From a virus (taxonomy: Duplodnaviria; Heunggongvirae; Uroviricota; Caudoviricetes): 64,000 nt of DNA. Below, piece by piece: positions 2,047 through 64,000 of the stretch. Numbering within the stretch: position 1 is the first letter of the stretch; each line of letters opens with the position of its first letter. The notes below the pieces were generated by a model. It saw nothing but the letters and a program-made list of their open reading frames with translations, was not told the DNA's origin and searched no databases. Position numbers and translations under genes: made by a program. The stretch is from IMG/VR virus record IMGVR_UViG_2744054962_000001. One strand, given 5' to 3'.

Positions 2047-2071
2047 GCGGTGCAATGCACCGCCTTTTTAT
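2047..2071. terminator. Rho-independent terminator between convergent umuD-like and apbC
   Basis: Palindrome GGCGGTGCA-A-TGCACCGCC followed by TTTTTA. Confidence 0.65.
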
Positions 2072-3171: not shown

Positions 3172-3328
3172 CCCGTCTCCTTTATTTTAATTTGCGCAAT
3201 TGTCGCCTTGTAGTGTACTCCAGCTACGACATTTAATCATTTATGAGAAATGCTGTTATCACATGGCAGACATAAGGCCATTTTGTTACTATCAAGCCCC
3301 TTTTCACTACAAAGAAGTAATGCCTACT

Positions 3329-5362
3329 ATGACCCAAGTCGCGAAGAAAATTCTGGTGACGTGCGCGCTGCCGTACGCTAACGGCTCAATCCACCTCGGC
3401 CATATGCTGGAGCACATCCAGGCTGATGTCTGGGTTCGTTACCAGCGAATGCGCGGCCACGAGGTTAATTTCATCTGTGCCGACGATGCCCACGGTACGC
3501 CGATCATGCTGAAAGCGCAGCAGCTTGGTATCACACCGGAGCAGATGATTGGCGAAATGAGTCAGGAACACCAGACTGATTTCGCAGGCTTTAACATCAG
3601 CTATGACAACTATCACTCGACGCACAGCGAAGAGAACCGTCAGTTGTCTGAGCTTATCTATACTCGCCTGAAAGAGAACGGTTTTATTAAAAACCGCACT
3701 ATCTCTCAGTTGTACGACCCGGAAAAAGGCATGTTCCTGCCGGATCGTTTTGTAAAAGGCACCTGCCCGAAATGTAAAGCGCCAGATCAATACGGCGATA
3801 ACTGTGAAGTCTGCGGCGCAACATATAGCCCGACTGAATTGATCGAGCCGAAATCGGTGGTTTCTGGCGCTACCCCGGTAATGCGTGATTCCGAACACTT
3901 CTTCTTTGATCTGCCTTCTTTCAGCGAAATGTTGCAGGCATGGACCCGCAGCGGCGCGTTGCAGGAGCAGGTGGCGAACAAAATGCAGGAATGGTTTGAA
4001 TCCGGCCTGCAACAGTGGGATATCTCCCGAGATGCGCCTTACTTCGGTTTTGAAATTCCGAACGCGCCGGGCAAATATTTCTACGTCTGGCTGGACGCGC
4101 CGATTGGCTACATGGGTTCCTTCAAGAATCTGTGCGACAAGCGCGGCGATACCACCAGCTTCGATGAATACTGGAAGAAAGACTCCACCGCCGAGCTGTA
4201 CCACTTCATCGGTAAAGATATTGTTTACTTCCACAGCCTGTTCTGGCCTGCCATGCTGGAAGGCAGCAACTTCCGCAAGCCGACCAACCTGTTTGTTCAC
4301 GGCTATGTGACGGTGAACGGCGCGAAGATGTCCAAGTCTCGCGGCACCTTTATTAAAGCCAGCACCTGGCTGAATCATTTTGACGCCGACAGCCTGCGTT
4401 ACTACTACACTGCGAAACTCTCTTCGCGCATTGATGATATCGATCTCAACCTGGAGGATTTCGTTCAGCGCGTGAATGCCGATATCGTGAACAAAGTGGT
4501 TAACCTGGCCTCCCGTAATGCAGGCTTTATCAACAAGCGTTTTGACGGCGTGCTGGCAAGCGAACTGGCTGACCCGCAACTGTACAAAACCTTTACTGAT
4601 GCCGCTGAAGTGATTGGCGAAGCATGGGAAAGCCGCGAATTTGGTAAAGCTATCCGTGAAATCATGGCATTGGCTGACCTGGCTAACCGCTATGTCGATG
4701 AACAGGCTCCGTGGGTGGTGGCGAAGCAGGAAGGACGCGATGCCGATCTGCAGGCGATTTGCTCTATGGGCATTAACCTGTTCCGCGTGCTGATGACGTA
4801 CCTGAAGCCGGTACTGCCGAAACTGACTGAACGTGCAGAAGCATTCCTGAATACAGAACTGACCTGGGATGGTATCCAGCAACCGCTGCTGGGCCATAAA
4901 GTAAATCCGTTCAAGGCACTGTATAACCGCATCGATATGAAGCAGGTTGAAGCACTGGTGGAAGCATCCAAAGAAGAAGTGAAAGCCACAGCCGCACCGG
5001 TAACTGGCCCACTGGCTGACGACCCGATTCAGGAAACTATCACCTTTGACGACTTCGCCAAAGTTGACCTGCGCGTGGCGCTGATTGAAAACGCAGAGTT
5101 TGTAGAAGGTTCTGACAAACTGCTTCGCCTGACGCTGGATCTCGGTGGTGAAAAGCGTAATGTCTTCTCAGGCATCCGTTCCGCTTATCCAGATCCACAG
5201 GCACTGATTGGTCGTCACACCATTATGGTGGCTAACCTGGCACCACGTAAAATGCGCTTCGGTATCTCCGAAGGCATGGTGATGGCTGCTGGCCCTGGCG
5301 GAAAAGATATCTTCCTGTTAAGCCCGGATACCGGTGCTAAACCTGGCCACCAGGTTAAGTAA
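3329..5362 (+). CDS. metG: Methionyl-tRNA synthetase
   Basis: ORF track starts at 3200 but conserved N-terminus [25 protein letters not shown] begins at ATG 3329; 677 aa; C-terminal tRNA-binding domain present. Confidence 0.97.
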
Positions 5363-5445: not shown

Positions 5446-5460
5446 AAAACAATTTGTTTT
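5446..5460. promoter_or_regulatory. Palindromic operator-like site AAAACAATTTGTTTT
   Basis: Perfect 15-bp palindrome; first copy of the repeated AAACAAnTTGTTT family. Confidence 0.5.
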
Positions 5461-5478
5461 CTACCTTTTGTTGATTGA

Positions 5479-5510
5479 GATAATAAGCCACATAAGAAAA
5501 CAAATTGTTT
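5479..5510 (+). promoter_or_regulatory. Early promoter/operator motif (GATAAT..ACA..GAAAACAAATTGTTT)
   Basis: Palindrome AAACAA-A-TTGTTT immediately upstream of RBS AGGAG and ATG 5516. Confidence 0.5.
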
Positions 5511-6457: not shown

Positions 6458-6589
6458 CTACACAAGTAAACAAATCAATCAGTTGATAATGGCGGTCACA
6501 ATTTGATTCTTTTCTATAAGAATCCGTTGATCGCCACTACTCCCCTTCCATACCTGCAATCACATCCTTAAATATCAATAAGTTATGGT

Positions 6590-7370
6590 TGTTTATACAA
6601 ACAAGAAAACAACTGAATAACAGATCAACGAAACGTCAATGCTTTCTCCCGATTTGGTCTAAAAAATTGACGTTTTCACACATCACTTCTTATACCCGTA
6701 ATTCTACGCAGCATATAGCGCCACAGCGTCCAAATTTCACCACAGACGACCCAACACACTACCAACAAAAACACACGCTCAAAATCGCTCCCGTTGCGTT
6801 ACACAACCATATAAACAACTTATTTTCAGGCATAACAAAACAACTAAATAACACACATGCCATTCCCCAAAACAACCAACCTCTTTATGGCAGGCTACCG
6901 AAAAGACCCACCTCTTCTCCCCAGGCTACCGGACAACCAACCTAACTTTCACAGGCAATCCGAAAACATTCATACGCGCGATACCCACGACACGCCATTC
7001 CCCAAACAGCGAAGAAACACCAGAATCACTGAAACCCCAACGAAGCCTGTAACAGCAAGGTTTCTCTCAATCCCAAAAGACACGAAACATAACAATCACG
7101 GGAAACGCCATTACCCAATACACGAATAACTACAAAAGCCCTTCACACTACAGACAAACAACTCAAACACAATAACGAAAGGAATCGCCCACCTGCCATT
7201 ACTCCATACACGGAGAAGAACAATCACCAAAACGACGAGAACACCCCATAGAAGAACCACCGCAAAACTAACGAAACCACATACACCGACAGGGAAAACA
7301 ACACACCCAATTCACCAACAGAAATAGTCGCCGTATAGAACGTTCTGGAAGGAGTGAGCATTAACGCCTA
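6590..7370 (+). other. A+C-rich, G-depleted stretch with no credible ORF (candidate untranslated RNA / Rho-loading region)
   Basis: Top strand dominated by A and C with CAA/ACA/CCAAC motifs; ORF-track ORFs here translate to low-complexity P/T/Q/N-rich peptides. Confidence 0.55.
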
Positions 7371-9392: not shown

Positions 9393-9408
9393 GATAACAA
9401 TTTGTTTT
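9393..9408. promoter_or_regulatory. Operator-like palindrome (GATAACAATTTGTTTT)
   Basis: Near-perfect member of the AAACAAnTTGTTT family. Confidence 0.45.
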
Positions 9409-9466
9409 CTGCCTTATCTGATTTGTGAAAATGATTTCACTGAAGCAACTTAATAAGGAAACCATC

Positions 9467-12985: not shown

Positions 12986-13510
12986 TTAAAATGGAAGGAT
13001 TCGTTCAACCCAATCGAAGAAAACAAGTATTTTTCTGCCGTCTTCTAACTTAAGAGTGACCTGGCAAGCATCAACGCCTCTTGACACCCCTTCTATTTCA
13101 CGACCGTCTGTCATGTAGACCCTTATAGATTGGTCGTTTTGATAAGCCTTGCGACATATCGCAAAAAAGTCACGGCGTGATGGCTGATTGTCAACATAGT
13201 CTGGATGTATTGTTAGCCTACCTTTGAACTCGCGAGCAATGCCATCGATTACACCTGATTCAATTGTGCTAATGCGCTCAAGTGGGAGTCTTATACGATT
13301 TTCTTTATCATATGGAATCGGGCATAAATCTAGCTTATTGCGTGAAGGCATTGTCCCCTGAACGTACATGCAAAACACCTGACCGTCTTCAAGCGTGACT
13401 CTTACAGGAATGTTGTTCTTCCGCCAGAACATAAGTATGTTCTCAGCATGTTCGTAGTCTCGCGGCCAGACTTCAGCCGGTATGCCGTAGGTGATGTCCA
13501 ATGTTCTCAT
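12986..13510 (-). CDS. Hypothetical protein (174 aa), AT-rich island
   Basis: Stop overlaps upstream gene by 4 nt (coupled); no recognised motif. Confidence 0.55.
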   Translation of the reverse strand: MRTLDITYGIPAEVWPRDYEHAENILMFWRKNNIPVRVTLEDGQVFCMYVQGTMPSRNKLDLCPIPYDKENRIRLPLERISTIESGVIDGIAREFKGRLTIHPDYVDNQPSRRDFFAICRKAYQNDQSIRVYMTDGREIEGVSRGVDACQVTLKLEDGRKILVFFDWVERILPF

Positions 13511-15387: not shown

Positions 15388-15666
15388 TTACGGCAACCTG
15401 CTCAGTATTTCCTCTAAATCTTTTTTTGTCATATTGGAGTTTTCATAGATGCGCATGATTTTCTCACGCGTCTTAGCGGAAACCCCAACAGCAGATGTGA
15501 CTTTGTCAAATTCAGCCATAGTCATCGTCTCCAGAATGGCATTGATAACTTCAGCTTTAGACATCTTGATTTTTTTCTCTTTGAGTTTTATTTGAAATTT
15601 TCCAAGTTTTTCATTGGCCTTATCAGACAATGCCACTTGGCAATAAGTTGTTTTCTTTTCGCTCAT
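15388..15666 (-). CDS. Hypothetical protein (92 aa)
   Basis: ORF begins 2 nt after helicase stop; K/E-rich. Confidence 0.5.
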   Translation of the reverse strand: MSEKKTTYCQVALSDKANEKLGKFQIKLKEKKIKMSKAEVINAILETMTMAEFDKVTSAVGVSAKTREKIMRIYENSNMTKKDLEEILSRLP

Positions 15667-17270: not shown

Positions 17271-17293
17271 ATAATAAGTAAGTGATTACTTAG
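17271..17293. promoter_or_regulatory. ATAAGTA-family motif (palindromic TAAGTAA-GTGA-TTACTTA) in divergent promoter region
   Basis: Between helicase (-) and ParB-like operon (+); member of repeated ATAAGTA motif family. Confidence 0.5.
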
Positions 17294-17310
17294 TGGATTG
17301 TAGCAATAAA

Positions 17311-17991
17311 ATGGATGTAAAAATCACGATTTTGCAGGTTGATGTTGCCAACCTTCGCCCGAATACCTGGAACACCAATTCGGTTGGTGCGCAGAATTTT
17401 GAAAAACTGAAAGGTTCTATCGAAAAATTGGGCTTTTTTAAGCCAATTTTGGCTCGTGAACTTGAAGATGGATTTTTTGAAATCCTCGGCGGCGAACATC
17501 GCTGGCGTGCCGCTATTGAGCAAGGAATTTCAACGGTTCCAGTGCTTTCTGTGGGCAAAATTAGCGATGTCGTAGCTAAACAGATGTCACTGGTGGACAA
17601 CGAGCGATACGGTGAAGACGACCAAATCGCATTGCAACGCTTCATTGAAGAAATTCAGTCAGAACTTGACTATCAACTGTCTGAAATCGCCCCGTATGAC
17701 GACGAAATCTCGATGGTTTTAGCAAAAGAGGCGGCAATCGACCTTGAAGCACTGGAGGCGTTGTCTCGTGGTAGTGATGAGCCTGTCGATACCGACAAAC
17801 GAGAGAAAACCGAACGTGTGGGGGCGGAACATCAGACCATGCGCTTCAAAGTAACTTTCGATGCGTCAGATCGCGTTGCAGAAACCATAAAAAACATCAT
17901 CAAAGAGCAGGCTATTAACACCGGTAATGAAATGGAGAACGCTGGTGAGGCTCTGGTGTGGCTGGTCGACTACTACAAGGAGCGTATGTAA
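17311..17991 (+). CDS. ParB-like nuclease-domain protein 1
   Basis: ParB/Srx-type N-terminal domain (GGEHRWRAA); ATG 17311 preferred over track GTG 17293. Confidence 0.65.
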   Translation: MDVKITILQVDVANLRPNTWNTNSVGAQNFEKLKGSIEKLGFFKPILARELEDGFFEILGGEHRWRAAIEQGISTVPVLSVGKISDVVAKQMSLVDNERYGEDDQIALQRFIEEIQSELDYQLSEIAPYDDEISMVLAKEAAIDLEALEALSRGSDEPVDTDKREKTERVGAEHQTMRFKVTFDASDRVAETIKNIIKEQAINTGNEMENAGEALVWLVDYYKERM

Positions 17992-18659
17992 TGACCAAAA
18001 AGTTTGAAATCGTATATCGCGACCCGGCAGATCTTATTCCCTATGAGATGAATGCCAAAAAGCATGATGAACAGCAGATCCGAGATCTAGCCGCAGCCAT
18101 TAAAAAGCGCGGATTTGACCAGCCAATTACGGTCGATAAGAACGACGTAATTATTACTGGCCACGGCCGCCGTGAGGCTGCAATTTTTGCTGGACTTGAG
18201 CGCGTACCGGTTATTGTTCGCGATGATCTCAGTGATGACGAGGTTCGTGCGAAGCGCCTTGAAGATAACCGACTTGCCAGCATTGATTACGATGCAATTA
18301 AGCTACAGAAAGAGCTTGAGTCGCTTGTTCTGGACGATATCGAGGTTTTCGGCTTTGAAGAGCGTGAGTTGAATGTTCTCGTTGGCAGCATGACAGAAGA
18401 AATGGACACCGACTCGCTAGTTATCGATCTTGGCGAAGAAACTAAACGACAGAAGGATGAACACACCGAGATCAGTCGTGAAGTTGCAGCGGAAGAAGTA
18501 CGTGTTGTCGACGTATTGGGCTTTAAAACGCTTCCTGCTGGCTCTGCCATTGTTGTTGGTGATTTGCTTGCCCACATGGAAGAAATGACGGGAGAAAGCG
18601 GGGTAGACGCATTTGTGGCATATGCGGAGAAGATCTCTTCCGGGGAGATGGCTGCATGA
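17958..18659 (+). CDS. ParB-like nuclease-domain protein 2
   Basis: Second ParB-type N-terminal domain (ITGHGRREAA); overlaps upstream gene by 34 nt; acidic C-terminal half. Confidence 0.6.
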   Translation: MAGRLLQGAYVMTKKFEIVYRDPADLIPYEMNAKKHDEQQIRDLAAAIKKRGFDQPITVDKNDVIITGHGRREAAIFAGLERVPVIVRDDLSDDEVRAKRLEDNRLASIDYDAIKLQKELESLVLDDIEVFGFEERELNVLVGSMTEEMDTDSLVIDLGEETKRQKDEHTEISREVAAEEVRVVDVLGFKTLPAGSAIVVGDLLAHMEEMTGESGVDAFVAYAEKISSGEMAA

Positions 18660-19321
18660 GCAAATACATCATCAACGTATCGTTTCAGACACGCGTAAAT
18701 AAAACCACGCGCACGTTGGAAATCGCTGAGTCGTTCGGGCTTGGCCTGGACGAAAAAGAGTGGACGCTTTACGACAATCTGGAGCTGGAAGTGAAGCAGG
18801 GCGATGTGGTGTACATCACCGGCCAATCCGGTTCCGGCAAATCAGTTGTGCTGCGCGAGTTGCAACGACAGATGAAGGATGAAGGGCTGTCTGTAGCCTC
18901 CATCGATGATTTTACCTTCGATAATGAGGTTAACGTCATCGATCAGTTGGGCAAAACGACCAGCGATGCGCTTGGGTTGTTATCTATGGCTGGTCTGAAC
19001 GATGCATATCTGTTTGTTCGCAAGCCTTCTGAAATGTCAGACGGTCAGAAATATCGTCTCAAGATTGCCAAACTGATTGAGTCAGGCGCTAAAGTGTGGG
19101 CTGCTGACGAGTTCGGTGCTGTTCTAGACCGTGTAACCGCTCAGGTTGTGGCATCTAACCTCCAGCGTGCCGCTCGAAAGGTTGGTGCAACGGTAATGGT
19201 GGCGACGACTCACGAAGACCTGAAGAACGCGCTGCGCCCGGATATGCAGATCACCAAGCACTACAAAGAACGCGTGAAGGTGGAATATCACAATGGTAGT
19301 CATGATGAGGTTCATTTATGA
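18656..19321 (+). CDS. Stand-alone ABC-type ATPase domain protein
   Basis: Walker A GQSGSGKS, signature MSDGQKYRL, Walker B VWAADEF, H-loop TTHEDL; ATGA overlap with neighbours. Confidence 0.75.
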   Translation: MSKYIINVSFQTRVNKTTRTLEIAESFGLGLDEKEWTLYDNLELEVKQGDVVYITGQSGSGKSVVLRELQRQMKDEGLSVASIDDFTFDNEVNVIDQLGKTTSDALGLLSMAGLNDAYLFVRKPSEMSDGQKYRLKIAKLIESGAKVWAADEFGAVLDRVTAQVVASNLQRAARKVGATVMVATTHEDLKNALRPDMQITKHYKERVKVEYHNGSHDEVHL

Positions 19322-20208
19322 CGGACATCATCATTAAACGCTACCGCCCTGAAGAGTTTCCGCGTCATCTGGACTTTCTGGAGCGAATGACTGTCACAAA
19401 GGGAACTGTAGAGGACTGGTACGCTCTTAAGTCGCTTCACTACAAAACAGACGGCAAACCTTTCGCGCCAACTTACTATCGCTGCGAACTTGATGACCGT
19501 CTGGTGGGCGTCGTGGTTATGGCTTACCCGAAACTACTGCTGGCACCTCGCCACCGCATGTTTCCTAAGTTGAAACCAACCACTAATACCACCGTGGCTA
19601 ACCAGTACTGGGGTCGGTACGTGAATAACAACTTTGCGGTGATCAGTCGCTCAGTTGTGGATACTCAGTATCGTGGCGTAGGCGTCTCTTATCGAATGAT
19701 TAACCTGGTTAGCAGGATGCATGACCGGCCAATCATTGAGATCCAGTCCTCGATGAGCAAATACAATCCCTTCGCCATGAAAGCAGGGTTTAAGTTCATC
19801 CGCCCTGAGCGACCGAAGAGCTATGAAAGTGCACTGCGTGTATTCCAGCGCCATTTCCGTTCCGACCCGGGTGATAACGAGGCGATCGTCAAAGAGTTGT
19901 TCGCAATGAGCGAGTCTCGTCGTCGCCGTGCACTGCGTGATCTGGTGGCGGACTACCACAAGAACAGTTCCCTGGCAAAAGCTGGGCGGAATCGTGGCAC
20001 GACGATTCAGGACATTGCCGACAGTCTGGTGGACGAGGCCAGCATTGTGAAGCTGCTCAAGGACATTCACAACCTGAGCTTTACGTCTCCGTTGTATGGT
20101 GTGTACCGAAACCCTGACTTTGGTCGTCGACTGCCTGACACGCTGCCACTGCTGGCATTCGACAAACAACCTTTGGATAAACCGTTAGAAATTGCTTTAC
20201 CGGCATAA
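19318..20208 (+). CDS. Hypothetical protein with weak GNAT-like motif (296 aa)
   Basis: YRGVGVSYRMINLV resembles GNAT motif A; ATGA overlap with ABC ATPase gene. Confidence 0.45.
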   Translation: MTDIIIKRYRPEEFPRHLDFLERMTVTKGTVEDWYALKSLHYKTDGKPFAPTYYRCELDDRLVGVVVMAYPKLLLAPRHRMFPKLKPTTNTTVANQYWGRYVNNNFAVISRSVVDTQYRGVGVSYRMINLVSRMHDRPIIEIQSSMSKYNPFAMKAGFKFIRPERPKSYESALRVFQRHFRSDPGDNEAIVKELFAMSESRRRRALRDLVADYHKNSSLAKAGRNRGTTIQDIADSLVDEASIVKLLKDIHNLSFTSPLYGVYRNPDFGRRLPDTLPLLAFDKQPLDKPLEIALPA

Positions 20209-20601: not shown

Positions 20602-20642
20602 GAAAACAAGTTGGTTAGCAGATGCAGTAAACAAGTTGTTTT
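20602..20642 (+). promoter_or_regulatory. Two tandem operator palindromes upstream of terminase genes
   Basis: GAAAACAAGTTGGTT at 20602 and AAACAAGTTGTTT (perfect) at 20629. Confidence 0.55.
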
Positions 20643-46263: not shown

Positions 46264-46286
46264 GATAGGTAAGTGCATACCTATAT
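46264..46286 (+). promoter_or_regulatory. ATAAGTA-family motif (ATAGGTA..TACCTAT inverted repeat)
   Basis: Upstream of lysis cassette. Confidence 0.45.
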
Positions 46287-47797: not shown

Positions 47798-48319
47798 TTA
47801 TTCTTCGAACAATTTTTCGATAGATTTTGTAGGATAGAACAAAGAACGCTCGTTGTTACCAACCAGCTGGATAAAGCCTAAACTTTTATAAAACGCCTTG
47901 GCTTTGTCATTTAACGCCTCAACGAAAAGTCCATGAATGCCTACAGCAAGAGATGCATTGTACACAACGCGCATTGCATGTGTTACAAGCATTGAGCCAA
48001 ATCCTTGACCTTGAAGGGACTTGTCCAAAGCCAGCCTACCCAAAGTAACACTTGGAACATTCCGATAAGGAACCTTCTTTTGTTTGCTTCTTGAAGGTAA
48101 GGACTCCTTTTCAAAACAACTACCTGACAAAGTGTAATATCCTAACACTTTTGGCCTTTCTTCTTGAGTGCAAAGCACATAAGCACGAAGAATTTTTCCC
48201 TCATGCTGCCTTTTTAAGTGGTTGGCTAAAAAGGCGTTTAGTGACTCTTCGCCGCAATCAAAACCGTTTAGATCATAATCTTTCTCTCCAGAGAAAATCT
48301 CTATCGTTGTATTGCTCAC
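47798..48319 (-). CDS. GNAT-family acetyltransferase toxin (TacT/AtaT-like)
   Basis: GNAT motif LQGQGFGSML; GTG start 7 nt after antitoxin stop. Confidence 0.75.
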   Translation of the reverse strand: MSNTTIEIFSGEKDYDLNGFDCGEESLNAFLANHLKRQHEGKILRAYVLCTQEERPKVLGYYTLSGSCFEKESLPSRSKQKKVPYRNVPSVTLGRLALDKSLQGQGFGSMLVTHAMRVVYNASLAVGIHGLFVEALNDKAKAFYKSLGFIQLVGNNERSLFYPTKSIEKLFEE

Positions 48320-48326
48320 GAGTAAA

Positions 48327-48596
48327 CTACTCCATGCTTTTCAGACGATCAGCAGCTCGTTTCAGCTTGTCGTTCGGTGCCGGAGGATTGCTTATAGCGT
48401 CCATAACCAGATTCCAGGATTCTTCATTCAGAACTAGTCTACGGTGTTGCTCTATAACTTTCACGGCACGTTCAGATGCACTGCTAACCATAAACTGAGT
48501 AATGCTCTGGTTAGACATTGCGGCAGCTTCCTCGATGATGCTTTTATCGTCATCGGTTAATCTCAAATCGATGCGCTGCTTTTTTAGTGCTGACAT
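48327..48596 (-). CDS. RHH antitoxin (DUF1778/TacA-like)
   Basis: 89 aa from ATG 48596 (AGGAGG RBS); immediately upstream of GNAT toxin. Confidence 0.7.
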   Translation of the reverse strand: MSALKKQRIDLRLTDDDKSIIEEAAAMSNQSITQFMVSSASERAVKVIEQHRRLVLNEESWNLVMDAISNPPAPNDKLKRAADRLKSME

Positions 48597-48864
48597 GTAT
48601 TCCTCCTGATGGCCGTGATGTAGGAAGGCCATCAATCTCCTCTGTTCAAACTGAGTTTTCGACTCAAAAATTACTTTAAAAGGCTATAGCCCATTACGTG
48701 TGCATTATCAAATTGTGTACGGCATATCACCGTACTTGTAATATAGAGGTCATTGTTACTTTTTTCAACAGACAAATACAAGCTATGATTGCCAATTGTT
48801 AATCACAACCTACCATTTAACCTTTACACCGCAGCCGTAGGCATTTAGGCTATATCACATATAA

Positions 48865-48879
48865 GAAAACAAGTTGTTT
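48865..48879. promoter_or_regulatory. Operator palindrome GAAAACAAGTTGTTT upstream of parA
   Basis: Perfect AAACAAGTTGTTT core 36 nt before parA ATG. Confidence 0.55.
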
Positions 48880-48914
48880 CAGACGATAATTATATACGCA
48901 AAGGGAACTCTCCA

Positions 48915-49583
48915 ATGACCAAGATCTTTGTGGTTGGCGGCACAAAGGGCGGGCCTGGCAAATCCACCGTTGCCCAGCAAATTGCCGTTTGCCTGAAAGT
49001 CAAAAAGAAGAAGAAGGTTTATATTACCGATATAGATATTCAGCGCACGACAACGAGCTGGTGTGAAGACCGTCGACAGAACGAAGACCTTGAGCTGATT
49101 CCTTTTGCATACGTTCAGGATGACATCATTAAGCACCTAAAATCGCTTCAGGGTAGAGCTGAGTTTGTAGTGGTAGATGCTGGTGGCTTCGACTCCGAAA
49201 TTCAGCGACAAGCGATGCTGATGGCTGACGTTATCATTATCCCGCTGCGTCCTAAGCGTCGTGATTTGAAATCTTTACGTGACATCGATCCTATTATCGA
49301 CAATGTTCGCAATGTAAACGATAAAGTGAAGGTCCGCGCGGTCATGAACCAGTGCCCGGCTTTGCCATCACAAGTGTCTCGCATTCTGGCGGCTAAAGAG
49401 ATTGTTGAGACGTTTGGAATCGAGTCTGCGCCAGTCAATCTATATAACCGCAACGTCTATGATGATGCGGAAGAGTCTGGTCGTTCTATCTTTGAAATGA
49501 CCGGTAGCGAGCGCGACAAAAAGGCGGAAGCCGAGTTTGAAGAATTTGTAGATTATCTGTTGAGTCTGGAGGAAGAAGAATAA
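48915..49583 (+). CDS. parA: ParA-family partition ATPase (small, type Ib-like)
   Basis: Deviant Walker A GGTKGGPGKST; 222 aa. Confidence 0.85.
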   Translation: MTKIFVVGGTKGGPGKSTVAQQIAVCLKVKKKKKVYITDIDIQRTTTSWCEDRRQNEDLELIPFAYVQDDIIKHLKSLQGRAEFVVVDAGGFDSEIQRQAMLMADVIIIPLRPKRRDLKSLRDIDPIIDNVRNVNDKVKVRAVMNQCPALPSQVSRILAAKEIVETFGIESAPVNLYNRNVYDDAEESGRSIFEMTGSERDKKAEAEFEEFVDYLLSLEEEE

Positions 49584-49942
49584 TGTCCATGAAAATGGGT
49601 GACCTAGCAAAGCGCAAAGAGCCTGATGCACCGGCTAAGAACACAACTCCTTTGCGCCAACCAGTCAGACCACAAGGACGCCCGACTCGTGGCAAAGAGA
49701 AAATTAAAAGCCGCACTATGTCACTGGAAGACGAATACTTCGAGCTTCTGGAAATGATGAAGTTTATCCCTCGTTTCGAGAAGTTCACCCGCTCTGATGT
49801 GATTCGTGCTGCTATTTTCCATCTGGCAGAGAAGTCACCGCAGGAAATCGAGGACATCGTAAAGCTGAACGAGGCGATCACAGCTGCCGATGTCACGATG
49901 CGTACCGATGAAATTAAACGCGAGTTGATGAAGAAAGGTTAA
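49583..49942 (+). CDS. Small partition partner protein (RHH/ParG-like, putative)
   Basis: TAATG overlap with parA; basic N-terminal tail then RHH-like segment. Confidence 0.5.
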   Translation: MSMKMGDLAKRKEPDAPAKNTTPLRQPVRPQGRPTRGKEKIKSRTMSLEDEYFELLEMMKFIPRFEKFTRSDVIRAAIFHLAEKSPQEIEDIVKLNEAITAADVTMRTDEIKRELMKKG

Positions 49943-49945
49943 TAA

Positions 49946-49978
49946 TGTGGGCTGTCTAGCCCACATTATTTTAATTAA
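49946..49978 (+). terminator. Rho-independent terminator
   Basis: TAATGTGGGC-TGTC-TAGCCCACATTA followed by TTTTAATT. Confidence 0.6.
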
Positions 49979-49993
49979 AGTGGAGTGATAATT

Positions 49994-50746
49994 ATGCATT
50001 CGTTAGTATTTGCATTTAAAAACATACTCAAGAATGTTATAAACATACTAGGGATGTTAAATATTTTTTTGTCTGTGAGGGTGAGGAGAAAAGATATAAA
50101 AGATAAATTAAAGGAACTTAACAAAGAAAAAGAACAATTAAAAAGCGAAGAAATTATTATTGATTTATACAAGAAAAAACTCGCATCTAGCAAGGGGAAA
50201 GCTAATGATAAAATCAAAGGAAAAATAATTCACTATATTATTGCTAGAGAGTTGGGGAATGATCCTGATAATGAAGATTTGCGACATAATCTTTTTACAA
50301 AGATAAAAGAATCAGAAGAACAGGTTGAAGTTCTGGTTCATCAAAGAGAAGTAAGTGAGCAGGCGAACAAAAAAGAAACGGTTGTCAATTTGTTTTTATT
50401 GTATGAAAAAAATAAATTGTTTAAAGCTAAGGGGTTGGCTGTGTTTCTTATAGTTATAAACTTAATTATAGTTGCGACTCTCGATCTTCCAGCTTGGTCA
50501 TTGATTATAAGTTTTTTTATTCTCTCTTTGATTATGTTGAAAGATCAGATACTTACTATTCGTGTCTCTAAAGGATATTTTGGCACAAGTGCGTATGAAG
50601 CGGTTCAATTGCTTAAATTCATCAGAGAAAATTCAGACAAATTTGACTCAGATGATAATGACGGTAGCCCACGACGGATATTGAATCCGAAGGGAACAAC
50701 AAAAAAATCAGACAACCTATTCGATAAAGGGTGGCAAAATGTTTGA
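49994..50746 (+). CDS. Hypothetical membrane protein (250 aa), AT-rich
   Basis: GGAG RBS; K/E-rich N-terminal region then two hydrophobic segments. Confidence 0.5.
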   Translation: MHSLVFAFKNILKNVINILGMLNIFLSVRVRRKDIKDKLKELNKEKEQLKSEEIIIDLYKKKLASSKGKANDKIKGKIIHYIIARELGNDPDNEDLRHNLFTKIKESEEQVEVLVHQREVSEQANKKETVVNLFLLYEKNKLFKAKGLAVFLIVINLIIVATLDLPAWSLIISFFILSLIMLKDQILTIRVSKGYFGTSAYEAVQLLKFIRENSDKFDSDDNDGSPRRILNPKGTTKKSDNLFDKGWQNV

Positions 50747-51161
50747 CCTTGACGCCATCACTAAGTTCTTAAATCAGTGTTTTGATCTACTTTTGCTCAA
50801 GCAGCCTTTAAGAACTGTTTTCGGAATACTGATTGGTTTCATTATTTTTGTTTTTGTTTACACGTTTAGGTTTGCGATAGCTCAAGATTTTTATGAAATA
50901 GATGGTGTGCATTACGCTGCATGTTTCGTCATCGGTGTTTTAGTTGTTCACACAAGAACATTTTTTGACGTTATCAAGGGCACCGCAGTTGATGAAGAAA
51001 TAGATAGTATGATCAGAGTTATTACGAAGCAGCCACACCTATCTAACCATCAAAAAAACATAATGATTGCTGAAATACTTCAAAAAGAAATTGCAGCCAT
51101 AAGTCAAAAGAGATTGGATAAAGTTGCACAAGAAATAACGGAGAAAAAGACAACTGATTAA
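50739..51161 (+). CDS. Hypothetical membrane protein (140 aa), AT-rich
   Basis: Start overlaps upstream stop; two predicted TM helices. Confidence 0.5.
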   Translation: MFDLDAITKFLNQCFDLLLLKQPLRTVFGILIGFIIFVFVYTFRFAIAQDFYEIDGVHYAACFVIGVLVVHTRTFFDVIKGTAVDEEIDSMIRVITKQPHLSNHQKNIMIAEILQKEIAAISQKRLDKVAQEITEKKTTD

Positions 51162-52091: not shown

Positions 52092-52106
52092 GAAAACAAT
52101 TTGTTT
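52092..52106. promoter_or_regulatory. Operator palindrome GAAAACAATTTGTTT upstream of helicase gene
   Basis: Member of AAACAAnTTGTTT family, 20 nt before ATG 52126. Confidence 0.55.
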
Positions 52107-60253: not shown

Positions 60254-60328
60254 GATGGTGTAGCTCAGCGGTAGAGCAGTTGGCTGTTAACCAACTGGTC
60301 GGTGGTTCGAATCCACCCACCATCGCCA
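60254..60328 (+). tRNA. tRNA-Asn (anticodon GTT)
   Basis: Cloverleaf: acceptor GATGGTG/CACCATC, D-arm GCTCAGCGGTAGAGC, anticodon loop CTGTTAA, T-loop TTCGAAT, encoded CCA. Confidence 0.85.
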
Positions 60329-60330
60329 AT

Positions 60331-60406
60331 GCCGGTTTAGCTCAGTTGGTAGAGCACCTGCCTTGTAAGCAGGATGTCAGCGGTTCGAATCCGTTAACCG
60401 GCACCA
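60331..60406 (+). tRNA. tRNA-Thr (anticodon TGT)
   Basis: Acceptor GCCGGTT/AACCGGC, anticodon stem CCTGC/GCAGG with loop CTTGTAA, T-loop TTCGAAT, encoded CCA. Confidence 0.85.
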
Positions 60407-60414
60407 ACACAATT

Positions 60415-60501
60415 GGAGAGTAGAGAGCATGGTGCTCAAGCGGTCTTGAAAGCCGTCCCATTGCGCAAGCGATGATGGTTCGATTCCATTACTCTCCGCC
60501 A
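60415..60501 (+). tRNA. tRNA-Ser (anticodon TGA), class II with long variable arm
   Basis: Acceptor GGAGAGT/ACTCTCC, anticodon loop CTTGAAA, variable arm with TTGCGCAA hairpin, T-loop TTCGATT, discriminator G plus CCA; anticodon stem has two G-U pairs. Confidence 0.65.
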
Positions 60502-61499: not shown

Positions 61500-62054
61500 T
61501 CAATCTTCCCTTTGTTTTGGGTAGTGTTGTGTTCGTATCGCATAGGAAGCTCCGTCATTTAAATAAGTTAGGCCACGCTCTTGTGTAAATCTCTTCACAT
61601 ATCTCTTGTATGTGGCCATCAGTTCTTCGCGTTCTGCCGCAAAGAATAAAATCTGTATGCCTTCATTGTCGGCAACTTTGAGCATTAAGTCAACTAAAGT
61701 ACCGTAAAGGTATTGAAGTTCACCTAAAGTAAGATTAAAAGACCCTTCGGGTTTGGCAAATACGTTAATTGGCTCTTCCGCTCCAAGAGCAGCATTCTGG
61801 AGCTGTTCTTGCTGCCTGTCAAGTTGAATCATGTCCACAAAACTAACGACAGATACACACAACCCATAAACATCAGCACCTAACATATTATGCATAGTTT
61901 CTGCGGCAACAGGATCTAAAGAAGGAGGGCAAAAGACTAAACGGTATCTAGCCTTACGAGCTTCATTGCCAGAGAAAACAAAGTCTATATCTAAATATGA
62001 CAGATCACCCGGCAATGAAGCCAAACCAGGTGTAACCAACTTATGCAAGTGCAT
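61500..62054 (-). CDS. Hypothetical protein (184 aa)
   Basis: ORF divergent from integrase; no motif recognised. Confidence 0.5.
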   Translation of the reverse strand: MHLHKLVTPGLASLPGDLSYLDIDFVFSGNEARKARYRLVFCPPSLDPVAAETMHNMLGADVYGLCVSVVSFVDMIQLDRQQEQLQNAALGAEEPINVFAKPEGSFNLTLGELQYLYGTLVDLMLKVADNEGIQILFFAAEREELMATYKRYVKRFTQERGLTYLNDGASYAIRTQHYPKQRED

Positions 62055-62321: not shown

Positions 62322-63425
62322 ATGAAAAATAGCTTTGACAGAGCACGCGCTGCGGAGAACACCTCAAAAGAGGCGATTGAGTATCTCGAAAGAGCATCTC
62401 AAATGCAGGCCGTTATGATCTCCCAGGTCAGCAATGACATGAGATTCTCGGACGCATTCATGTTATTCACTCGCTTATCTCTGCTGATAACCAGACGTCG
62501 GCCAGAGATCGCTGTTCATTGTATTTTGATACATGTTTTGCCGCACATTGCCGATGTAAAAGTAAGTGACATTAATAGGTTCATGGTGAACCAACTGGTC
62601 AACCCACTAATACTGGATGGCAAAATTGTTATGGGCCGCCGCGTTTTCTCTCTGATGAAGCAGTTCCTTAGCTGGTGCGCCTTCCAGGGGATGATAGACG
62701 TGTCACCGTTAAACGATATGTCACTTAACAAAGTTGCCGGTGGCGCAAAGCCCACACCTCGCGAGCGGAAGCTGACCGACGCAGAGGTATGGGTGTTCTG
62801 GAATATATGGGACTACTTCAATGTGTGTGCTGGTACAAAATGGGCGGCCAGGCTATGTCTTGTATCCGCAAGACGACCTGACGAAGTACTGCGGGCTAAA
62901 AAAAGTGAGTTCAATCTTAAGCGTGGGGTTTGGAATCAAGGCAAGAGGAACAAATCTGCCCGTGAGCATTCTCTGCCTTTAAGCTCATTAATGCGCACTT
63001 GTATTGAAGAGTTGTTCGAATATGGTAAAGACAGCCAGTGGCTCGTGCCTTCGAATAAAAAAATCGGGAAAGACCTTCCTATGTCTAAAGTGGCAATAGC
63101 CCAGGCATTACGTCGTATTCTGGAACGACCAGAACTGATGGAGCTTGAGCCATTTACACCCCGAGATTTGCGCCGTACTGCGCGTAGTTACTTCCCAGCA
63201 TTAGGCATAAGCCAGGAGGTATCACGTAAAATCATGAACCACAGTCTTGAGGGGATAGATCGGGTCTACGACCGGCACGATTATATGGACGAGATGCGAG
63301 ACGCCTTAGAAAGTTTCTCGACGTACATCGCATCAATCGTAGAGCAACCGGATTTAGACGAAATTGACCACAAATTCAAGGGAGATCGTCTATCAACAGA
63401 GCTTATTCGTGTAAATTTTTCATAG
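62322..63425 (+). CDS. int: Tyrosine recombinase / phage integrase
   Basis: C-terminal catalytic region with conserved Arg, RDLRRT and VYDRHDY tyrosine segment; N-terminal ~60 aa atypical, start uncertain. Confidence 0.7.
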   Translation: MKNSFDRARAAENTSKEAIEYLERASQMQAVMISQVSNDMRFSDAFMLFTRLSLLITRRRPEIAVHCILIHVLPHIADVKVSDINRFMVNQLVNPLILDGKIVMGRRVFSLMKQFLSWCAFQGMIDVSPLNDMSLNKVAGGAKPTPRERKLTDAEVWVFWNIWDYFNVCAGTKWAARLCLVSARRPDEVLRAKKSEFNLKRGVWNQGKRNKSAREHSLPLSSLMRTCIEELFEYGKDSQWLVPSNKKIGKDLPMSKVAIAQALRRILERPELMELEPFTPRDLRRTARSYFPALGISQEVSRKIMNHSLEGIDRVYDRHDYMDEMRDALESFSTYIASIVEQPDLDEIDHKFKGDRLSTELIRVNFS

Positions 63426-63806
63426 AGACTTTATGGCCTCAACAACCTTTTGTGATGCGCCTTTCTCTTTACCGAATCGCTCGTTATATGCAGCAAGAAC
63501 CTGTTTTTCGTCCTCGTTAAGAGGAGCAGTGCCTTCTTTGTATAAAAATGCTGCGAGTTCGGGTTGGCGTTCTTCCAGCACCATCATCATAAGACGACTT
63601 GGCTCAATACCCAGTGCCAGCGCCAGCGGACGAACCTTATCGATAGGCAAAGGAATTTTGCCGCTTTTAATTAAAGAAAGGTTGTTGGCGTTTTTATACC
63701 CAATTGTTTTGGCTATCTGGGCCTGGCTCATAGGTGAGGATTCAATCAACCCTGCGATAAAAGCAGCGTAGCGACTTTCTATAAATTCAATCTTGTTATC
63801 AGACAT
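63420..63806 (-). CDS. XRE-family HTH transcriptional regulator (repressor-like)
   Basis: HTH segment SQAQIAKTIGYKNANNLSLIKSG; convergent with integrase, overlapping by 6 nt. Confidence 0.7.
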   Translation of the reverse strand: MSDNKIEFIESRYAAFIAGLIESSPMSQAQIAKTIGYKNANNLSLIKSGKIPLPIDKVRPLALALGIEPSRLMMMVLEERQPELAAFLYKEGTAPLNEDEKQVLAAYNERFGKEKGASQKVVEAIKSL

Positions 63807-64000
63807 GGTTACAACCTTTGCGCGTTCAATTCTCTCTGGTAAGTGCTTACCGATATTACATCAAAGGTTATGGTTGTAAAGCTATTATCATTTTTTTCGA
63901 TAGGCACTTAAAAGACCGGTTAAAGGCCATTGCACGGAGAAAAATTAGCCAAAAATAGGTAAGAAAATCAACTTGCATATGATATGAATGTATTCAGTAT

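What the first reader, a model, noticed from the sequence alone, without database searches (positions are those of the whole stretch)
48865..49942. ParA plus small RHH-like partner controlled by the phage operator palindrome
A small ParA (deviant Walker A GGTKGGPGKST) is followed with a 1-nt overlap by a 119-aa basic protein with an RHH-like C-terminal region, and is preceded by the AAACAAGTTGTTT operator. A plasmid-type segregation module under phage regulon control, in an element that also encodes an integrase, is unusual and bears on whether the element can persist as an episome. The centromere site is not identified.
Basis: partly seen in the sequence, partly recalled or inferred. Interest (0 to 1): 0.45.

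Follow-up and report, generated by a model that had tools for sequence, protein, structure and literature searches.

The report
Partition operon of SSU5-like phage-plasmid
This is the plasmid-segregation operon (a small ParA ATPase plus an unannotated small DNA-binding partner) of a well-known family of phages that live as plasmids; its promoter carries the same 13-base operator that marks about 17 otherwise silent lytic promoters, which is real and neat but largely expected biology.

Summary
parA is at 48915-49583 (222 aa, deviant Walker A). A 119-aa partner at 49583-49942 overlaps it by one base. AAACAAGTTGTTT lies at 48867-48879.

The window is an SSU5/pHCM2-type phage-plasmid, 97-98% identical to E. 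coli phage Cyrano (pLF82). These elements are already known to persist as plasmids, and the partner gene occurs in 797 sequenced plasmids. So the episome question is settled, and the integrase is a conserved family gene.

ParA's closest solved relative is ParF of TP228, a type Ib partition ATPase. The partner belongs to a tiny, unannotated family always found next to this parA. It has a conserved N-terminal Lys/Arg peptide, a disordered basic arm and a probable, weakly supported ribbon-helix-helix core.

The palindrome is a genuine operator-like site. There are 11 copies in the window and about 17 per genome. All copies in the unsampled part of Cyrano are intergenic, and most sit 12-15 nt after a -10 element.

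In published Cyrano lysogen RNA-seq, only the parA operon among palindrome-linked units is expressed.

Comparative evidence argues that a separate repressor, not the partner, binds the palindrome. pMT1 keeps the palindromes without the partner, and other lineages keep the partner without the palindromes.

The centromere remains unidentified. Verdict: a new member of a known kind, of modest interest.

The parts
48808..48881 (+). Conserved parA control block. It is nearly invariant (one C/G difference) between E. coli, Salmonella SSU5 and the 90%-type Klebsiella relatives, although the coding DNA is only 79-86% identical. It holds the promoter and the operator, and is the best candidate region for a type Ib upstream centromere/operator.
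   Evidence: Alignments. Homology to the SSU5 and Klebsiella phages starts at query position 205-215, about window 48804-48814.
48823..48828 (+). -35 hexamer TTTACA of P_parA (inferred).
   Evidence: A 17-bp spacer separates it from TAGGCT. The same architecture appears in diverged lineages: TTGTCA-N17-TAGGCT in L007 and TTTACA-N17-TAGTAT in L029.
48846..48851 (+). -10 hexamer TAGGCT of P_parA (inferred).
   Evidence: TTAGGCTA is retained in every Enterobacteriaceae lineage compared.
48867..48879 (.). Operator palindrome AAACAA-G-TTGTTT, at about +9 to +21 of P_parA.
   Evidence: It is conserved at this position in lineages whose partner is 31-94% identical.
48915..49583 (+). parA: a small type Ib-like partition ATPase (222 aa). 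It has the Walker A KGGPGKST and Asp117, which aligns with the ParF Asp111 described as critical in PMC7308502.
   Evidence: ParF 4dzz matches at E 1.2e-10 over residues 9-199.
49583..49942 (+). Partner (119 aa), a probable ParG/omega-like centromere-binding protein. It has an invariant N-terminal MGDLAK(R/K) peptide, a variable linker, a basic arm PxRPQGRPTRGK, a putative strand KSRTMSLEDE, helices at 48-60 and 70-84 (with a TRSD N-cap), and two further C-terminal helices.
49941..49970 (.). Perfect 13-bp inverted repeat with a 4-nt loop, immediately after the partner's stop codon. It is terminator-like and marks the end of the conserved two-gene module.
   Evidence: Similarity to Cyrano and SSU5 ends at about 49946.
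52094..52106 (.). The same palindrome (AAACAATTTGTTT) 19 nt before the DnaB-like helicase gene.
   Evidence: It is conserved in Klebsiella and other lineages.
20604..20641 (.). A pair of palindromes (20604-20616 and 20629-20641) before the small terminase gene.
   Evidence: The same pair is present in pMT1.
5447..5510 (.). A pair of palindromes (5447-5459 and 5498-5510) before the first small gene of the early-type region. Further single sites lie at 6813, 8007, 8491, 9396 and 10145.
   Evidence: Sites 5498, 8007, 8491 and 10145 follow an extended -10 element (TGnGATAAT or TGnTATTAT) by 13-14 nt.
47798..48635 (-). Divergent neighbour: a TacA/TacT (KacAT) GNAT toxin-antitoxin pair. It is another plasmid-maintenance module.
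   Evidence: TacA1 8.6e-26 and GNAT.

Best explanation
The locus is the active-partition operon of an SSU5/pHCM2-type phage-plasmid and works like a type Ib (ParF/ParG-like) system.

**ParA and the partner (inferred by analogy with ParF/ParG).** ParA is a small Walker ATPase without an N-terminal DNA-binding domain. It would bind the nucleoid as an ATP dimer. The 119-aa partner would dimerise through a probable ribbon-helix-helix core, bind a centromere, and use its disordered N-terminal tail (the conserved MGDLAK-R/K peptide) to stimulate ParA's ATPase. That would move plasmid copies apart.

**Promoter (inferred from footprinting).** The operon is transcribed from a sigma-70 promoter, TTTACA-N17-TAGGCT.

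**Operator (shown as sequence, function inferred).** The initial transcribed region of that promoter carries one copy of the 13-bp palindrome AAACAAnTTGTTT. The same site sits just downstream of the -10 element of about 16 other promoters of the element. These include early small genes, the helicase, nrdB, cobT and the small terminase. It most likely binds an element-encoded repressor that is not the partner.

**Expression in the lysogen (shown for Cyrano).** That repressor would keep the lytic units silent and only throttle parAB. parAB remains expressed together with repA, the integrase and the HTH repressor.

**Centromere (not located).** By the type Ib rule it should lie in the conserved 74-bp block upstream of parA.
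For: **Family.** The locus is 97-98% identical in DNA to phage-plasmids CMS-2020a and Cyrano, 86% to SSU5 and 79-80% to Klebsiella relatives. Synteny from lysis genes through parA and partner to helicase and primase is kept out to Morganella and Xenorhabdus relatives.

**ParA.**
- NF041546 ParA_partition at 1.9e-33, against MinD at 1.3e-6.
- phrog_164, ParA-like, at 4e-51.
- ParF of TP228 at E 1.2e-10, aligned over nearly its full length, with the Asp111 equivalent conserved (PMC7308502).

**Partner.**
- It lies immediately downstream of this parA in all thirteen lineages inspected.
- It is present in 797 plasmids.
- Its N-terminus is predicted disordered and is followed by a helix-loop-helix.
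- It gives weak RHH hits.
- This layout (flexible tail plus C-terminal RHH, undetectable by sequence) is the one described for type Ib centromere-binding proteins (PMC3074162).

**Expression in the plasmid state.** In Cyrano lysogen RNA-seq, ParA is 49.8 and the partner 89.1 against a background of 9.8. repA is 133, the repressor 96 and the integrase 50. Copy number is 5.5 (PMC9928086). The Cyrano promoter region is identical to the window's.

**Operator.**
- It is enriched 17 hits against 0.21 expected.
- All six further Cyrano sites are intergenic, 19-74 nt before genes.
- Its position relative to the -10 element is fixed.
- The linked genes are at or near background in the lysogen: terS 7.1, CYRAN_101 7.5, CYRAN_105 12.8, cobT 7.8, helicase 21.

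**A binder other than the partner.**
- pMT1 of Y. pestis has no parA or partner but keeps six palindromes at the same promoters.
- Lineages L018-L021, Moellerella and L028 keep the partner with the same putative reading residues (S-R-T-x-S strand, (T/S)R(S/T)D N-cap) but have no palindrome at parA, the helicase gene or elsewhere.
Against: - No experiment shows that this module stabilises a plasmid.
- The RHH fold is not confirmed. Three fold searches were blank, and PDB sequence and profile searches were blank.
- No repeat array typical of type Ib centromeres was found near the operon.
- Type Ib operons are normally autoregulated by their own centromere-binding protein. Apart from the -10 hexamer, the only sequence near P_parA that stays invariant across the three Enterobacteriaceae lineages that share the partner's DNA-binding residues is the palindrome with its 5' flank. 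That leaves room for the partner being the binder.
- pMT1 is a young, defective element, so its palindromes could be relics.
- The repressor that binds the palindrome is not identified.
- The expression data come from Cyrano, not from this exact element.
Confidence: 0.6

Rival explanations
1. The partner itself binds the palindrome. It would then be an omega- or KorB-like dual-function protein: an autorepressor of parAB, a global silencer of about 17 lytic promoters, and a centromere-binding protein. The dispersed palindromes would together serve as the centromere.
For: - Type Ib operons are autoregulated by their centromere-binding protein at a site upstream of the operon (PMC3074162).
- The palindrome with its flank is the only dyad-symmetric element kept at P_parA in lineages I-III and V, and the partner's basic arm, strand and helix-B N-cap are invariant in I-III.
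- The partner is one of few proteins with a putative DNA-binding domain that are expressed in the lysogen (89 against 9.8).
- P_parA is the only palindrome promoter that is on in lysogens, as expected for the repressor's own autoregulated promoter.
- In lineage III the half-site TTGTTT/AAACAA is densest upstream of parA: 4-5 copies in 150 bp against about 0.2 expected.
- Dispersed single-palindrome centromeres exist in the phage-plasmid N15, as IR1-4 (PMC7205306).
Against: - pMT1 keeps six palindromes without the partner gene.
- Morganellaceae relatives and L028 keep the partner's putative reading residues but have no palindrome anywhere in 7-50 kb.
- The half-site is not enriched in those relatives.
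- The sites lie at a fixed distance from -10 elements, which is typical of a dedicated transcription repressor rather than of a centromere.
- RHH centromere-binding proteins normally need arrays of adjacent repeats.
Confidence: 0.15
2. The palindrome does not act as a DNA operator for an element-encoded repressor. It might be bound by a host factor shared by Enterobacteriaceae and Yersinia. Or it might act in the RNA as a 5'-leader motif, for example as a target of the FljA-like post-transcriptional repressor encoded at 12986-13510.
For: - The motif lies in the 5' untranslated leader of every unit.
- It is invariant across E. coli, Salmonella, Klebsiella and Yersinia elements whose HTH repressor is only 56-65% identical or, in SSU5, absent.
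- It is missing in Morganellaceae hosts.
- An FljA-family protein is encoded in the element and in pMT1.
Against: - As RNA the palindrome could form only a 5-bp A-U rich stem, which is very weak (inference from the sequence).
- Its distance is fixed relative to the -10 element, not to the start codon.
- I could not match the motif to any host regulator I know (my own knowledge; no scan was run).
- The FljA-like gene is only 1.8x background in the lysogen.
Confidence: 0.12
3. The real centromere-binding partner of ParA is one of the two ParB_N-domain proteins at 17293-18659. The 119-aa protein would then be only an accessory regulator.
For: - Two adjacent ParB N-terminal domain proteins exist (Pfam 3.3e-13 and 1.5e-8).
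- They are annotated 'ParB' in Cyrano and pMT1.
- A surveillance study used an SSU5 'parB' as a marker gene (bioRxiv 2025.09.12.675607).
Against: - They lie 31 kb from parA, in an operon with ABC-type ATPases just upstream of the terminase genes.
- They are silent in the lysogen (5.0 and 9.5 against a background of 9.8).
- pMT1 keeps them although it uses a P7-type parAB and has lost the small parA.
- Only the ParB_N domain was detected in these ~230-aa proteins; no other domain matched.
Confidence: 0.05
4. The pair is not a partition system at all. Options include a MinD/MipZ-like positioning ATPase for another cargo, or a toxin-antitoxin-like pair as implied by Cyrano's 'RelE/ParE putative toxin' label for the partner.
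For: - The top Pfam hit by E-value is MipZ (7.3e-14).
- Cyrano annotates the partner as a RelE/ParE toxin.
- No stability assay exists.
Against: - The partner has no ParE/RelE or any other Pfam hit even at E<=10, and no PADLOC hit of note.
- The curated ParA partition family scores far above MinD.
- This is the only ParA-type operon in a ~108-kb, ~5-copy plasmid that must be actively segregated. That last step is an inference.
Confidence: 0.05

Closest known systems
ParF-ParG-parH of plasmid TP228 (type Ib partition)
   Same: - A small Walker ATPase that is the closest solved relative of this ParA (4dzz, E 1.2e-10).
- A downstream small protein with a flexible, basic N-terminal tail and a C-terminal two-helix DNA-binding core.
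- The control region lies upstream of the operon.
   Different: - The partner is 119 aa rather than 76 aa and has two extra C-terminal helices.
- It shows no detectable sequence similarity to ParG (hhalign E 0.51).
- No array of tetramer boxes like the ~100-bp parH was found.
- The promoter instead carries a palindrome shared with many other promoters.
delta-omega of pSM19035, and IncC-KorB/KorA of RK2 (partition proteins or co-encoded repressors acting as global regulators)
   Same: - One short operator is repeated at many promoters of the replicon, including the partition operon's own promoter.
- KorB's operator is also a 13-bp palindrome with an odd centre (my own knowledge).
   Different: - Here the comparative evidence points to a binder other than the partition protein.
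- The regulated genes are phage lytic genes, not replication or transfer genes.
- KorB is an HTH ParB, not an RHH protein.
P1 prophage-plasmid (ParA-ParB-parS, Cre-lox, and C1 repressor with many dispersed operators)
   Same: - A phage that lives as a low-copy plasmid.
- It has an active partition operon, a tyrosine recombinase, toxin-antitoxin addiction, and a repressor that silences many scattered lytic operons through one operator type.
   Different: - P1 uses a type Ia system: a large ParA with an HTH domain, an HTH ParB, and parS downstream.
- Its par operon is autoregulated by ParA/ParB and is not part of the C1 operator set.
- C1 operators are asymmetric (my own knowledge).
N15 linear phage-plasmid SopAB with four separate palindromic centromere sites IR1-4
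   Same: A phage-plasmid whose partition system is intertwined with the phage genome through single palindromes rather than one tandem array (PMC7205306).
   Different: - N15 uses a type Ia SopA/SopB system.
- Its palindromes are proven SopB sites.
- Here no link between the partner and the palindrome is shown, and the comparative evidence argues against one.
ParA-ParB of pCXC100
   Same: A type Ib system whose centromere-binding protein had no detectable DNA-binding motif by sequence. It was shown only by crystallography to be an RHH with a long flexible N-terminal domain (PMC3074162).
   Different: - It comes from a Gram-positive plasmid and shows no sequence relationship.
- Its centromere is a ~90-bp array of about ten repeats upstream of parA.

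Membership tests
Type Ib plasmid partition system (ParF/ParG-like) | Walker-type ParA with the deviant Walker A motif (KGGxxK[ST]) | tested here: met
   GGTKGGPGKST lies at residues 8-18. NF041546 matches at 1.9e-33, which is below its equivalog cutoff (115.7 against 180 bits). ParF matches at E 1.2e-10.
Type Ib plasmid partition system (ParF/ParG-like) | Small ParA lacking the N-terminal HTH autoregulatory domain of type Ia | tested here: met
   The protein is 222 aa. The Walker A starts at residue 8. Residues 9-199 align to ParF residues 8-189 of 206.
Type Ib plasmid partition system (ParF/ParG-like) | Small centromere-binding protein encoded directly downstream, with a flexible N-terminal tail and a C-terminal RHH dimer | tested here: inconclusive
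   - Adjacency with start/stop overlap is conserved in all lineages.
- Residues 1-47 have no predicted structure.
- Helices fall in RHH-compatible positions.
- RHH profile hits are weak: 2.3e-4, 5e-3 and 0.019.
- Fold searches found nothing.
Type Ib plasmid partition system (ParF/ParG-like) | Centromere made of repeated short sites upstream of the operon, doubling as the operator | tested here: inconclusive
   - A 74-bp near-invariant upstream block exists, but no repeat array was found.
- The only dyad element is the single palindrome.
- An ATAAGA/TCTTAT hexamer recurs upstream of parA in 12 of 13 lineages, which is only a weak lead.
Type Ib plasmid partition system (ParF/ParG-like) | Stabilises a low-copy replicon; the partner's tail stimulates the ParA ATPase | not testable with these tools
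   Only indirect support is available. The operon is expressed in the plasmid state. A Lys/Arg peptide, MGDLAK(R/K), is conserved at the N-terminus.
SSU5/pHCM2 supergroup of phage-plasmids | Shared gene content, synteny and high DNA identity with recognised members | tested here: met
   Identity is 97-98% to CMS-2020a and Cyrano and 86% to SSU5. Most of the left 12.5 kb matches at 95-98%. The gene order is the same as in pMT1, pHCM2, pJN2-26 and the Moellerella plasmid.
RelE/ParE toxin (the partner's label in the Cyrano record) | Sequence membership in a RelE/ParE toxin family | tested here: not met
   There is no Pfam family at E<=10 for the window protein. NCBIfam and PADLOC give no toxin hit. 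PHROG 5111 has 'unknown function'.
MinD / MipZ positioning ATPases | Best match to MinD or MipZ models over the full length, with a MinE or cell-pole context | tested here: not met
   The MipZ Pfam hit covers only residues 4-132. MinD equivalogs score 1.3e-6 and 3.3e-4, far below their cutoffs. The context is a plasmid-maintenance region beside a toxin-antitoxin pair.

The most novel reading that the evidence does not exclude
The 119-aa partner would be both the centromere-binding protein and the protein that binds AAACAAnTTGTTT.

One small RHH protein, made from the only palindrome promoter that stays on in lysogens, would then silence about 17 lytic promoters. It would also use those dispersed operators as the plasmid's centromeres. 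Plasmid segregation and maintenance of lysogeny would be hard-wired together in the most widespread phage-plasmid family of Enterobacteriaceae.
Probability: 0.15. Interest if true: 0.65.

Novelty: new member of a known kind. Interest (0 to 1): 0.3.

Why it matters
SSU5/pHCM2-type phage-plasmids are very common in clinical E. coli, Klebsiella, Salmonella Typhi, Shigella and Y. pestis (as pMT1), and some carry resistance genes.

**Annotation.** Their only ParA-type segregation operon has a second gene that every database calls 'hypothetical', or wrongly a toxin. Recognising it as the probable ParG-like adaptor gives a testable handle on how these ~100-kb, ~5-copy elements are inherited.

**Regulon.** The 13-bp palindrome defines a regulon of about 17 promoters. 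I found no description of it in the searchable literature. It offers a route to identifying the lysis-lysogeny circuitry of this family.

**What is not new.** None of this changes the known picture that these elements are plasmids.

Tried and rejected
**Centromere repeats.** Direct, inverted and tandem repeat searches over 48600-50100 and the whole window found no array near the operon.

**Fold of the partner.**
- Two AlphaFold models were made: full length (pLDDT 63) and residues 37-119 (pLDDT 70).
- PDB sequence and profile searches were also blank.

**Remote homologues of the partner.** A profile search of 1.8 billion representatives found only 18 clusters, all of the same family.

**HTH repressor (63420-63806) as palindrome binder.** This was neither shown nor excluded. 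Its recognition helix is conserved. However, its own upstream region carries a different palindrome, GGTAAGnnCTTACC, and SSU5 lacks the gene yet keeps the AAACAA palindromes.

**Half-site arrays as centromere.** The AAACAA/TTGTTT density upstream of parA is highest in some lineages but not in the window. The A+C-rich 6560-7330 region has many half-sites, but its match in the phage collection is confined to the E. coli-type elements; Klebsiella matches start only near 9465.

**ATAAGA hexamer as the partner's site.** It recurs but is statistically weak.

**A 188-kb Klebsiella plasmid hit.** It held only an IS-flanked remnant of the partner gene.

**Other checks.** The 'MinD' gene of Cyrano (window 2071-3171) is an ApbC/Mrp homologue next to metG, not a partition gene. 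Rfam found only three tRNAs.
Full report
**1. What is there**

- parA is at 48915-49583 (222 aa, MTKIFVVGGTKGGPGKST...).
- A 119-aa ORF at 49583-49942 overlaps it. Its ATG shares one base with the parA stop codon (ATAATG), and a GGAGGA Shine-Dalgarno lies 9 nt upstream.
- AAACAAGTTGTTT is at 48867-48879.
- The partner is basic overall (pI 9.56). The charge sits in the first 47 residues (pI 11.4); the rest is acidic.
- A perfect 13-bp inverted repeat follows the partner's stop codon (49941-49970).
- Upstream, on the other strand, lies a TacA/TacT-type toxin-antitoxin pair.

**2. What the element is**

The region is 97-98% identical to Escherichia phage-plasmids CMS-2020a and Cyrano, 86% to Salmonella phage SSU5 and 79-80% to Klebsiella relatives.

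Cyrano is pLF82 of E. coli LF82. It is an SSU5-like phage-plasmid with 5.5 copies per cell that produces virions and is induced by ciprofloxacin (PMC9928086). SSU5-type elements are the largest known group of phage-plasmids (PMC7969092).

The partner gene is present in 797 PLSDB plasmid records, almost all about 105-120 kb and non-mobilizable. Episomal persistence is therefore established fact.

The integrase (62322-63425) is a conserved family gene. It lies next to an HTH repressor (63420-63806, - strand) in the window, Cyrano, pJN2-26, pMT1 and a Moellerella plasmid.

**3. ParA**
- The best curated family is NF041546, 'ParA family partition ATPase', at 1.9e-33. This is below its equivalog cutoff. 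MinD models score 1e-6 or worse.
- PHROG 164, 'ParA-like partition protein', scores 4e-51.
- The closest solved structures are ParF/ParA of TP228. The match is E 1.2e-10, with residues 9-199 aligned to ParF 8-189.
- The alignment preserves the Asp that corresponds to ParF Asp111. That residue is reported as critical for nucleotide conformation and ParG interaction (PMC7308502).
- There is no N-terminal extension.

This is a type Ib-style ParA.

**4. The partner**

*Homology.* It has no Pfam family. PHROG 5111 is 'unknown function'. Public records call it 'hypothetical', or 'RelE/ParE putative toxin' in Cyrano. The toxin label has no support.

*Family size.* The family is tiny. It has 25 clusters among 5.8 billion proteins and 18 representatives among 1.8 billion by profile search. 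In all thirteen lineages inspected, the gene lies directly after the small parA. This holds in lineages down to 31% identity.

*Sequence layout.*
- An N-terminal peptide M-G-D-L-A-K-(R/K), invariant in the close family. Distant members have [MFL]G[DG]L.K.
- A variable linker.
- A basic arm P.RPQGRPTRGK.
- A segment KSRTMS(L/I/M)EDE(Y/F).
- A segment FTRSDVIRAAI.

*Structure prediction.* AlphaFold monomer models leave residues 1-47 unstructured. They place helices at 48-60, 70-84, 86-98 and 101-118. This matches a strand-helix-helix (RHH) core plus two extra helices.

*RHH support by profile is weak but repeated.*
- aCcr1 RHH family, E 2.3e-4, over residues 54-79.
- Pfam RHH_1 for two members, best E 5e-3.
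- An in-register hhalign match to CopG, E 0.019.

*Negative results.* Fold searches were uninformative. RHH domains form only as intertwined dimers, and the tool folds one chain. The pCXC100 ParB precedent shows that type Ib centromere-binding proteins are often unrecognisable by sequence. They typically combine a flexible N-terminal tail with a C-terminal RHH (PMC3074162). In ParG the tail carries the arginine-finger-like motif that stimulates ParF (PMC7308502).

I therefore read the partner as a probable ParG/omega-like adaptor. The fold and the function are inferred, not shown.

**5. The promoter**

Phylogenetic footprinting defines P_parA.

| Lineage | Promoter |
|---|---|
| Window | TTTACA (48823-48828), 17 bp, TAGGCT (48846-48851) |
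| L007 | TTGTCA-N17-TAGGCT |
| L029 | TTTACA-N17-TAGTAT |
| L028 | TTTACA-N17-TAGGCT |

- The palindrome then lies at roughly +9 to +21.
- The block 48808-48881 is nearly invariant (one C/G difference) between E. coli, Salmonella and 90%-type Klebsiella elements.
- The coding DNA in the same elements is only 79-86% identical, and the leader after the palindrome varies.

**6. The palindrome**

*Enrichment and count.* It is strongly enriched: 17 strand-hits at 10 sites against 0.21 expected. An 11th site is at 9396. The part of Cyrano not covered by the window adds six more sites. All are intergenic and lie 19-74 nt before genes (cobT, CYRAN_58, nrdB, CYRAN_85, 87, 93). That makes about 17 per genome.

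*Position.* Most sites sit 12-15 nt after a -10-like element. Four follow an extended -10 (TGnGATAAT or TGnTATTAT) by 13-14 nt. A conserved AGA lies on the promoter side. This is the position of an operator that blocks initiation or early elongation, not of an activator site. At 5498 the start codon follows within about 11 nt, so the right arm cannot serve as a -35.

*Expression in published Cyrano lysogen RNA-seq (background median 9.8).*

| Palindrome-linked gene | Normalised reads |
|---|---|
| terS | 7.1 |
| CYRAN_101 | 7.5 |
| CYRAN_105 | 12.8 |
| CYRAN_106 | 12.2 |
| CYRAN_108 | 5.7 |
| CYRAN_110 | 6.7 |
| cobT | 7.8 |
| CYRAN_58 | 5.7 |
| nrdB | 12.9 |
| helicase | 21 |
| ParA | 49.8 |
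| Partner | 89.1 |
| Next gene after the partner | 54.6 |

For comparison, repA is 133, the HTH repressor 96 and the integrase 50.

parAB therefore belongs by expression to the maintenance set, although it carries the operator of the silent set. Two features may explain the partial escape:
- P_parA has a near-consensus -35 with a 17-bp spacer.
- Its operator is 15 nt from the -10 (12-14 nt elsewhere), or imperfect in other lineages (AAACATCTTGTTT in L007, AAACAACATGTTT in L029).

That explanation is an inference.

**7. Who binds the palindrome?**

I tested the attractive idea that the partner does, which would make it omega- or KorB-like.

*For the idea.*
- Type Ib operons are autoregulated by their centromere-binding protein.
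- The palindrome is the only dyad element kept at P_parA across lineages that share the partner's DNA-binding segments.
- P_parA is the only palindrome promoter that is on in lysogens.

*Against the idea.*
- Y. pestis pMT1 has lost the small parA and the partner (no tblastn hit). It uses a P7-type parAB, yet keeps six palindromes at terS, cobT and early-gene promoters.
- The reverse case also occurs. Morganella, Photorhabdus, Xenorhabdus and Moellerella relatives and lineage L028 keep parA and the partner with the same putative reading residues (S-R-T-x-S; (T/S)R(S/T)D). They have no palindrome at parA, at the helicase gene or anywhere in 7-50 kb. The half-site is not enriched there.

This two-way dissociation makes a separate binder more likely. 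I give about 0.6-0.65 to a separate binder and 0.15 to the partner. It is not decisive, because pMT1 is a young, defective element and specificity could also reside in the diverged basic arm.

*Candidates for the separate binder.*
- The HTH repressor. Its recognition helix is conserved. However, its own upstream region carries a different palindrome, GGTAAGnnCTTACC. That motif recurs before the holin gene with a co-varying centre. SSU5 lacks the repressor gene but keeps the AAACAA palindromes.
- A 92-aa protein at 15388-15666 (- strand; phrog_1466).
  - It looks RHH-like by eye.
  - It is 11.7x background in the lysogen.
  - It is present in 790 plasmids including pMT1.
  - Its putative reading residues are conserved in palindrome-bearing lineages but changed in Moellerella.

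Neither assignment is established.

**8. The centromere**

It was not found. No repeat array lies near the operon.

Candidates, in order:
- The conserved 74-bp block upstream of parA. This follows the type Ib rule, and parH of TP228 is itself a cryptic array of degenerate 4-bp boxes (PMC3130281).
- An ATAAGA/TCTTAT hexamer. It recurs within 200 bp upstream of parA in 12 of 13 lineages, with two copies in five of them (statistically weak).
- The dispersed palindromes, under the rival model. N15's separate IR1-4 sites are a precedent (PMC7205306).

The two ParB_N-domain proteins at 17293-18659 are unlikely partners. They lie in the terminase-proximal operon and are silent in lysogens. pMT1 also retains them despite the loss of the small parA.

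**9. Verdict**

- It is wrong that the arrangement is unusual or that it bears on an open question of episomal persistence.
- New content is modest. It comprises a functional assignment for a widespread unannotated protein family, a promoter/operator map, and the observation that parAB is the one operator-bearing unit expressed in lysogeny.

Noticed in passing
window 63838-63851 and 46268-46281: A second, unrelated palindrome GGTAAGnnCTTACC sits 32 nt before the HTH repressor gene and, with one mismatch, 54 nt before the holin gene. Both positions are also occupied in pJN2-26. pMT1 has the copy beside the repressor gene and SSU5 has the copy before the holin gene. The central dinucleotide co-varies between the two sites within an element (TG in E. 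coli elements, TA in pJN2-26). This suggests one binder, perhaps the HTH repressor, that directly controls the lysis cassette.
   Followed up: partly
window 15388-15666 (- strand): A 92-aa protein (phrog_1466, unknown function) downstream of a UvsW-like helicase, with a strand-helix-helix pattern by eye. It is 11.7x background in Cyrano lysogens and present in 790 plasmids including pMT1. It is a candidate binder of the AAACAAnTTGTTT operator. No profile or structural support was obtained.
   Followed up: partly
window 6560-7330: About 750 bp that are extremely A+C-rich on the + strand (GC skew about -0.5, AT skew up to +0.6). There is no convincing ORF, and the region is silent in the Cyrano lysogen. 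It contains many AAACAAC-type half-sites. In the phage collection its match is confined to the E. coli-type elements. Its function is unknown.
   Followed up: partly
window 2071-5362: The phage-plasmid carries an ApbC/Mrp-type Fe-S carrier ATPase (annotated 'MinD' in Cyrano) divergent from a full-length methionyl-tRNA synthetase gene. This is the arrangement of the host mrp-metG locus. The Mrp gene is expressed in lysogens (92 against a background of 9.8).
   Followed up: no
window 12986-13510 (- strand): A full-length FljA-family protein, 'repressor of phase-1 flagellin' (Pfam 9e-81). It is conserved in pMT1 and pHCM2. It could be a lysogenic-conversion factor acting on host flagellin, or a regulator of the element itself.
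   Followed up: no
window 61500-62054 (- strand): The homologue of CYRAN_43 (184 aa, no known domain) is by far the most highly expressed Cyrano gene in lysogens, about 720x background. It lies between the tRNA cluster and the integrase and is absent from pMT1.
   Followed up: no
window 17293-20208: Two adjacent ParB N-terminal-domain proteins, then an ABC-type ATPase and one further ORF with no detected domain (annotated as an ABC-type ATPase in Cyrano), lie just upstream of the terminase genes. They are silent in lysogens and conserved even in pMT1 and Moellerella. They are probably a lytic-cycle DNA-handling module rather than a partition system.
   Followed up: partly
window 49985-51161: The two genes after the partner (253 and 140 aa; PHROGs of unknown function) differ from those in Cyrano and SSU5 at the same position, so this is a variable cargo slot. 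A 21-bp tandem repeat (2.2 copies) lies at 50016-50061.
   Followed up: no
window 60254-60501: A cluster of three tRNA genes (Asn-GTT, Thr-TGT, Ser-TGA).
   Followed up: no
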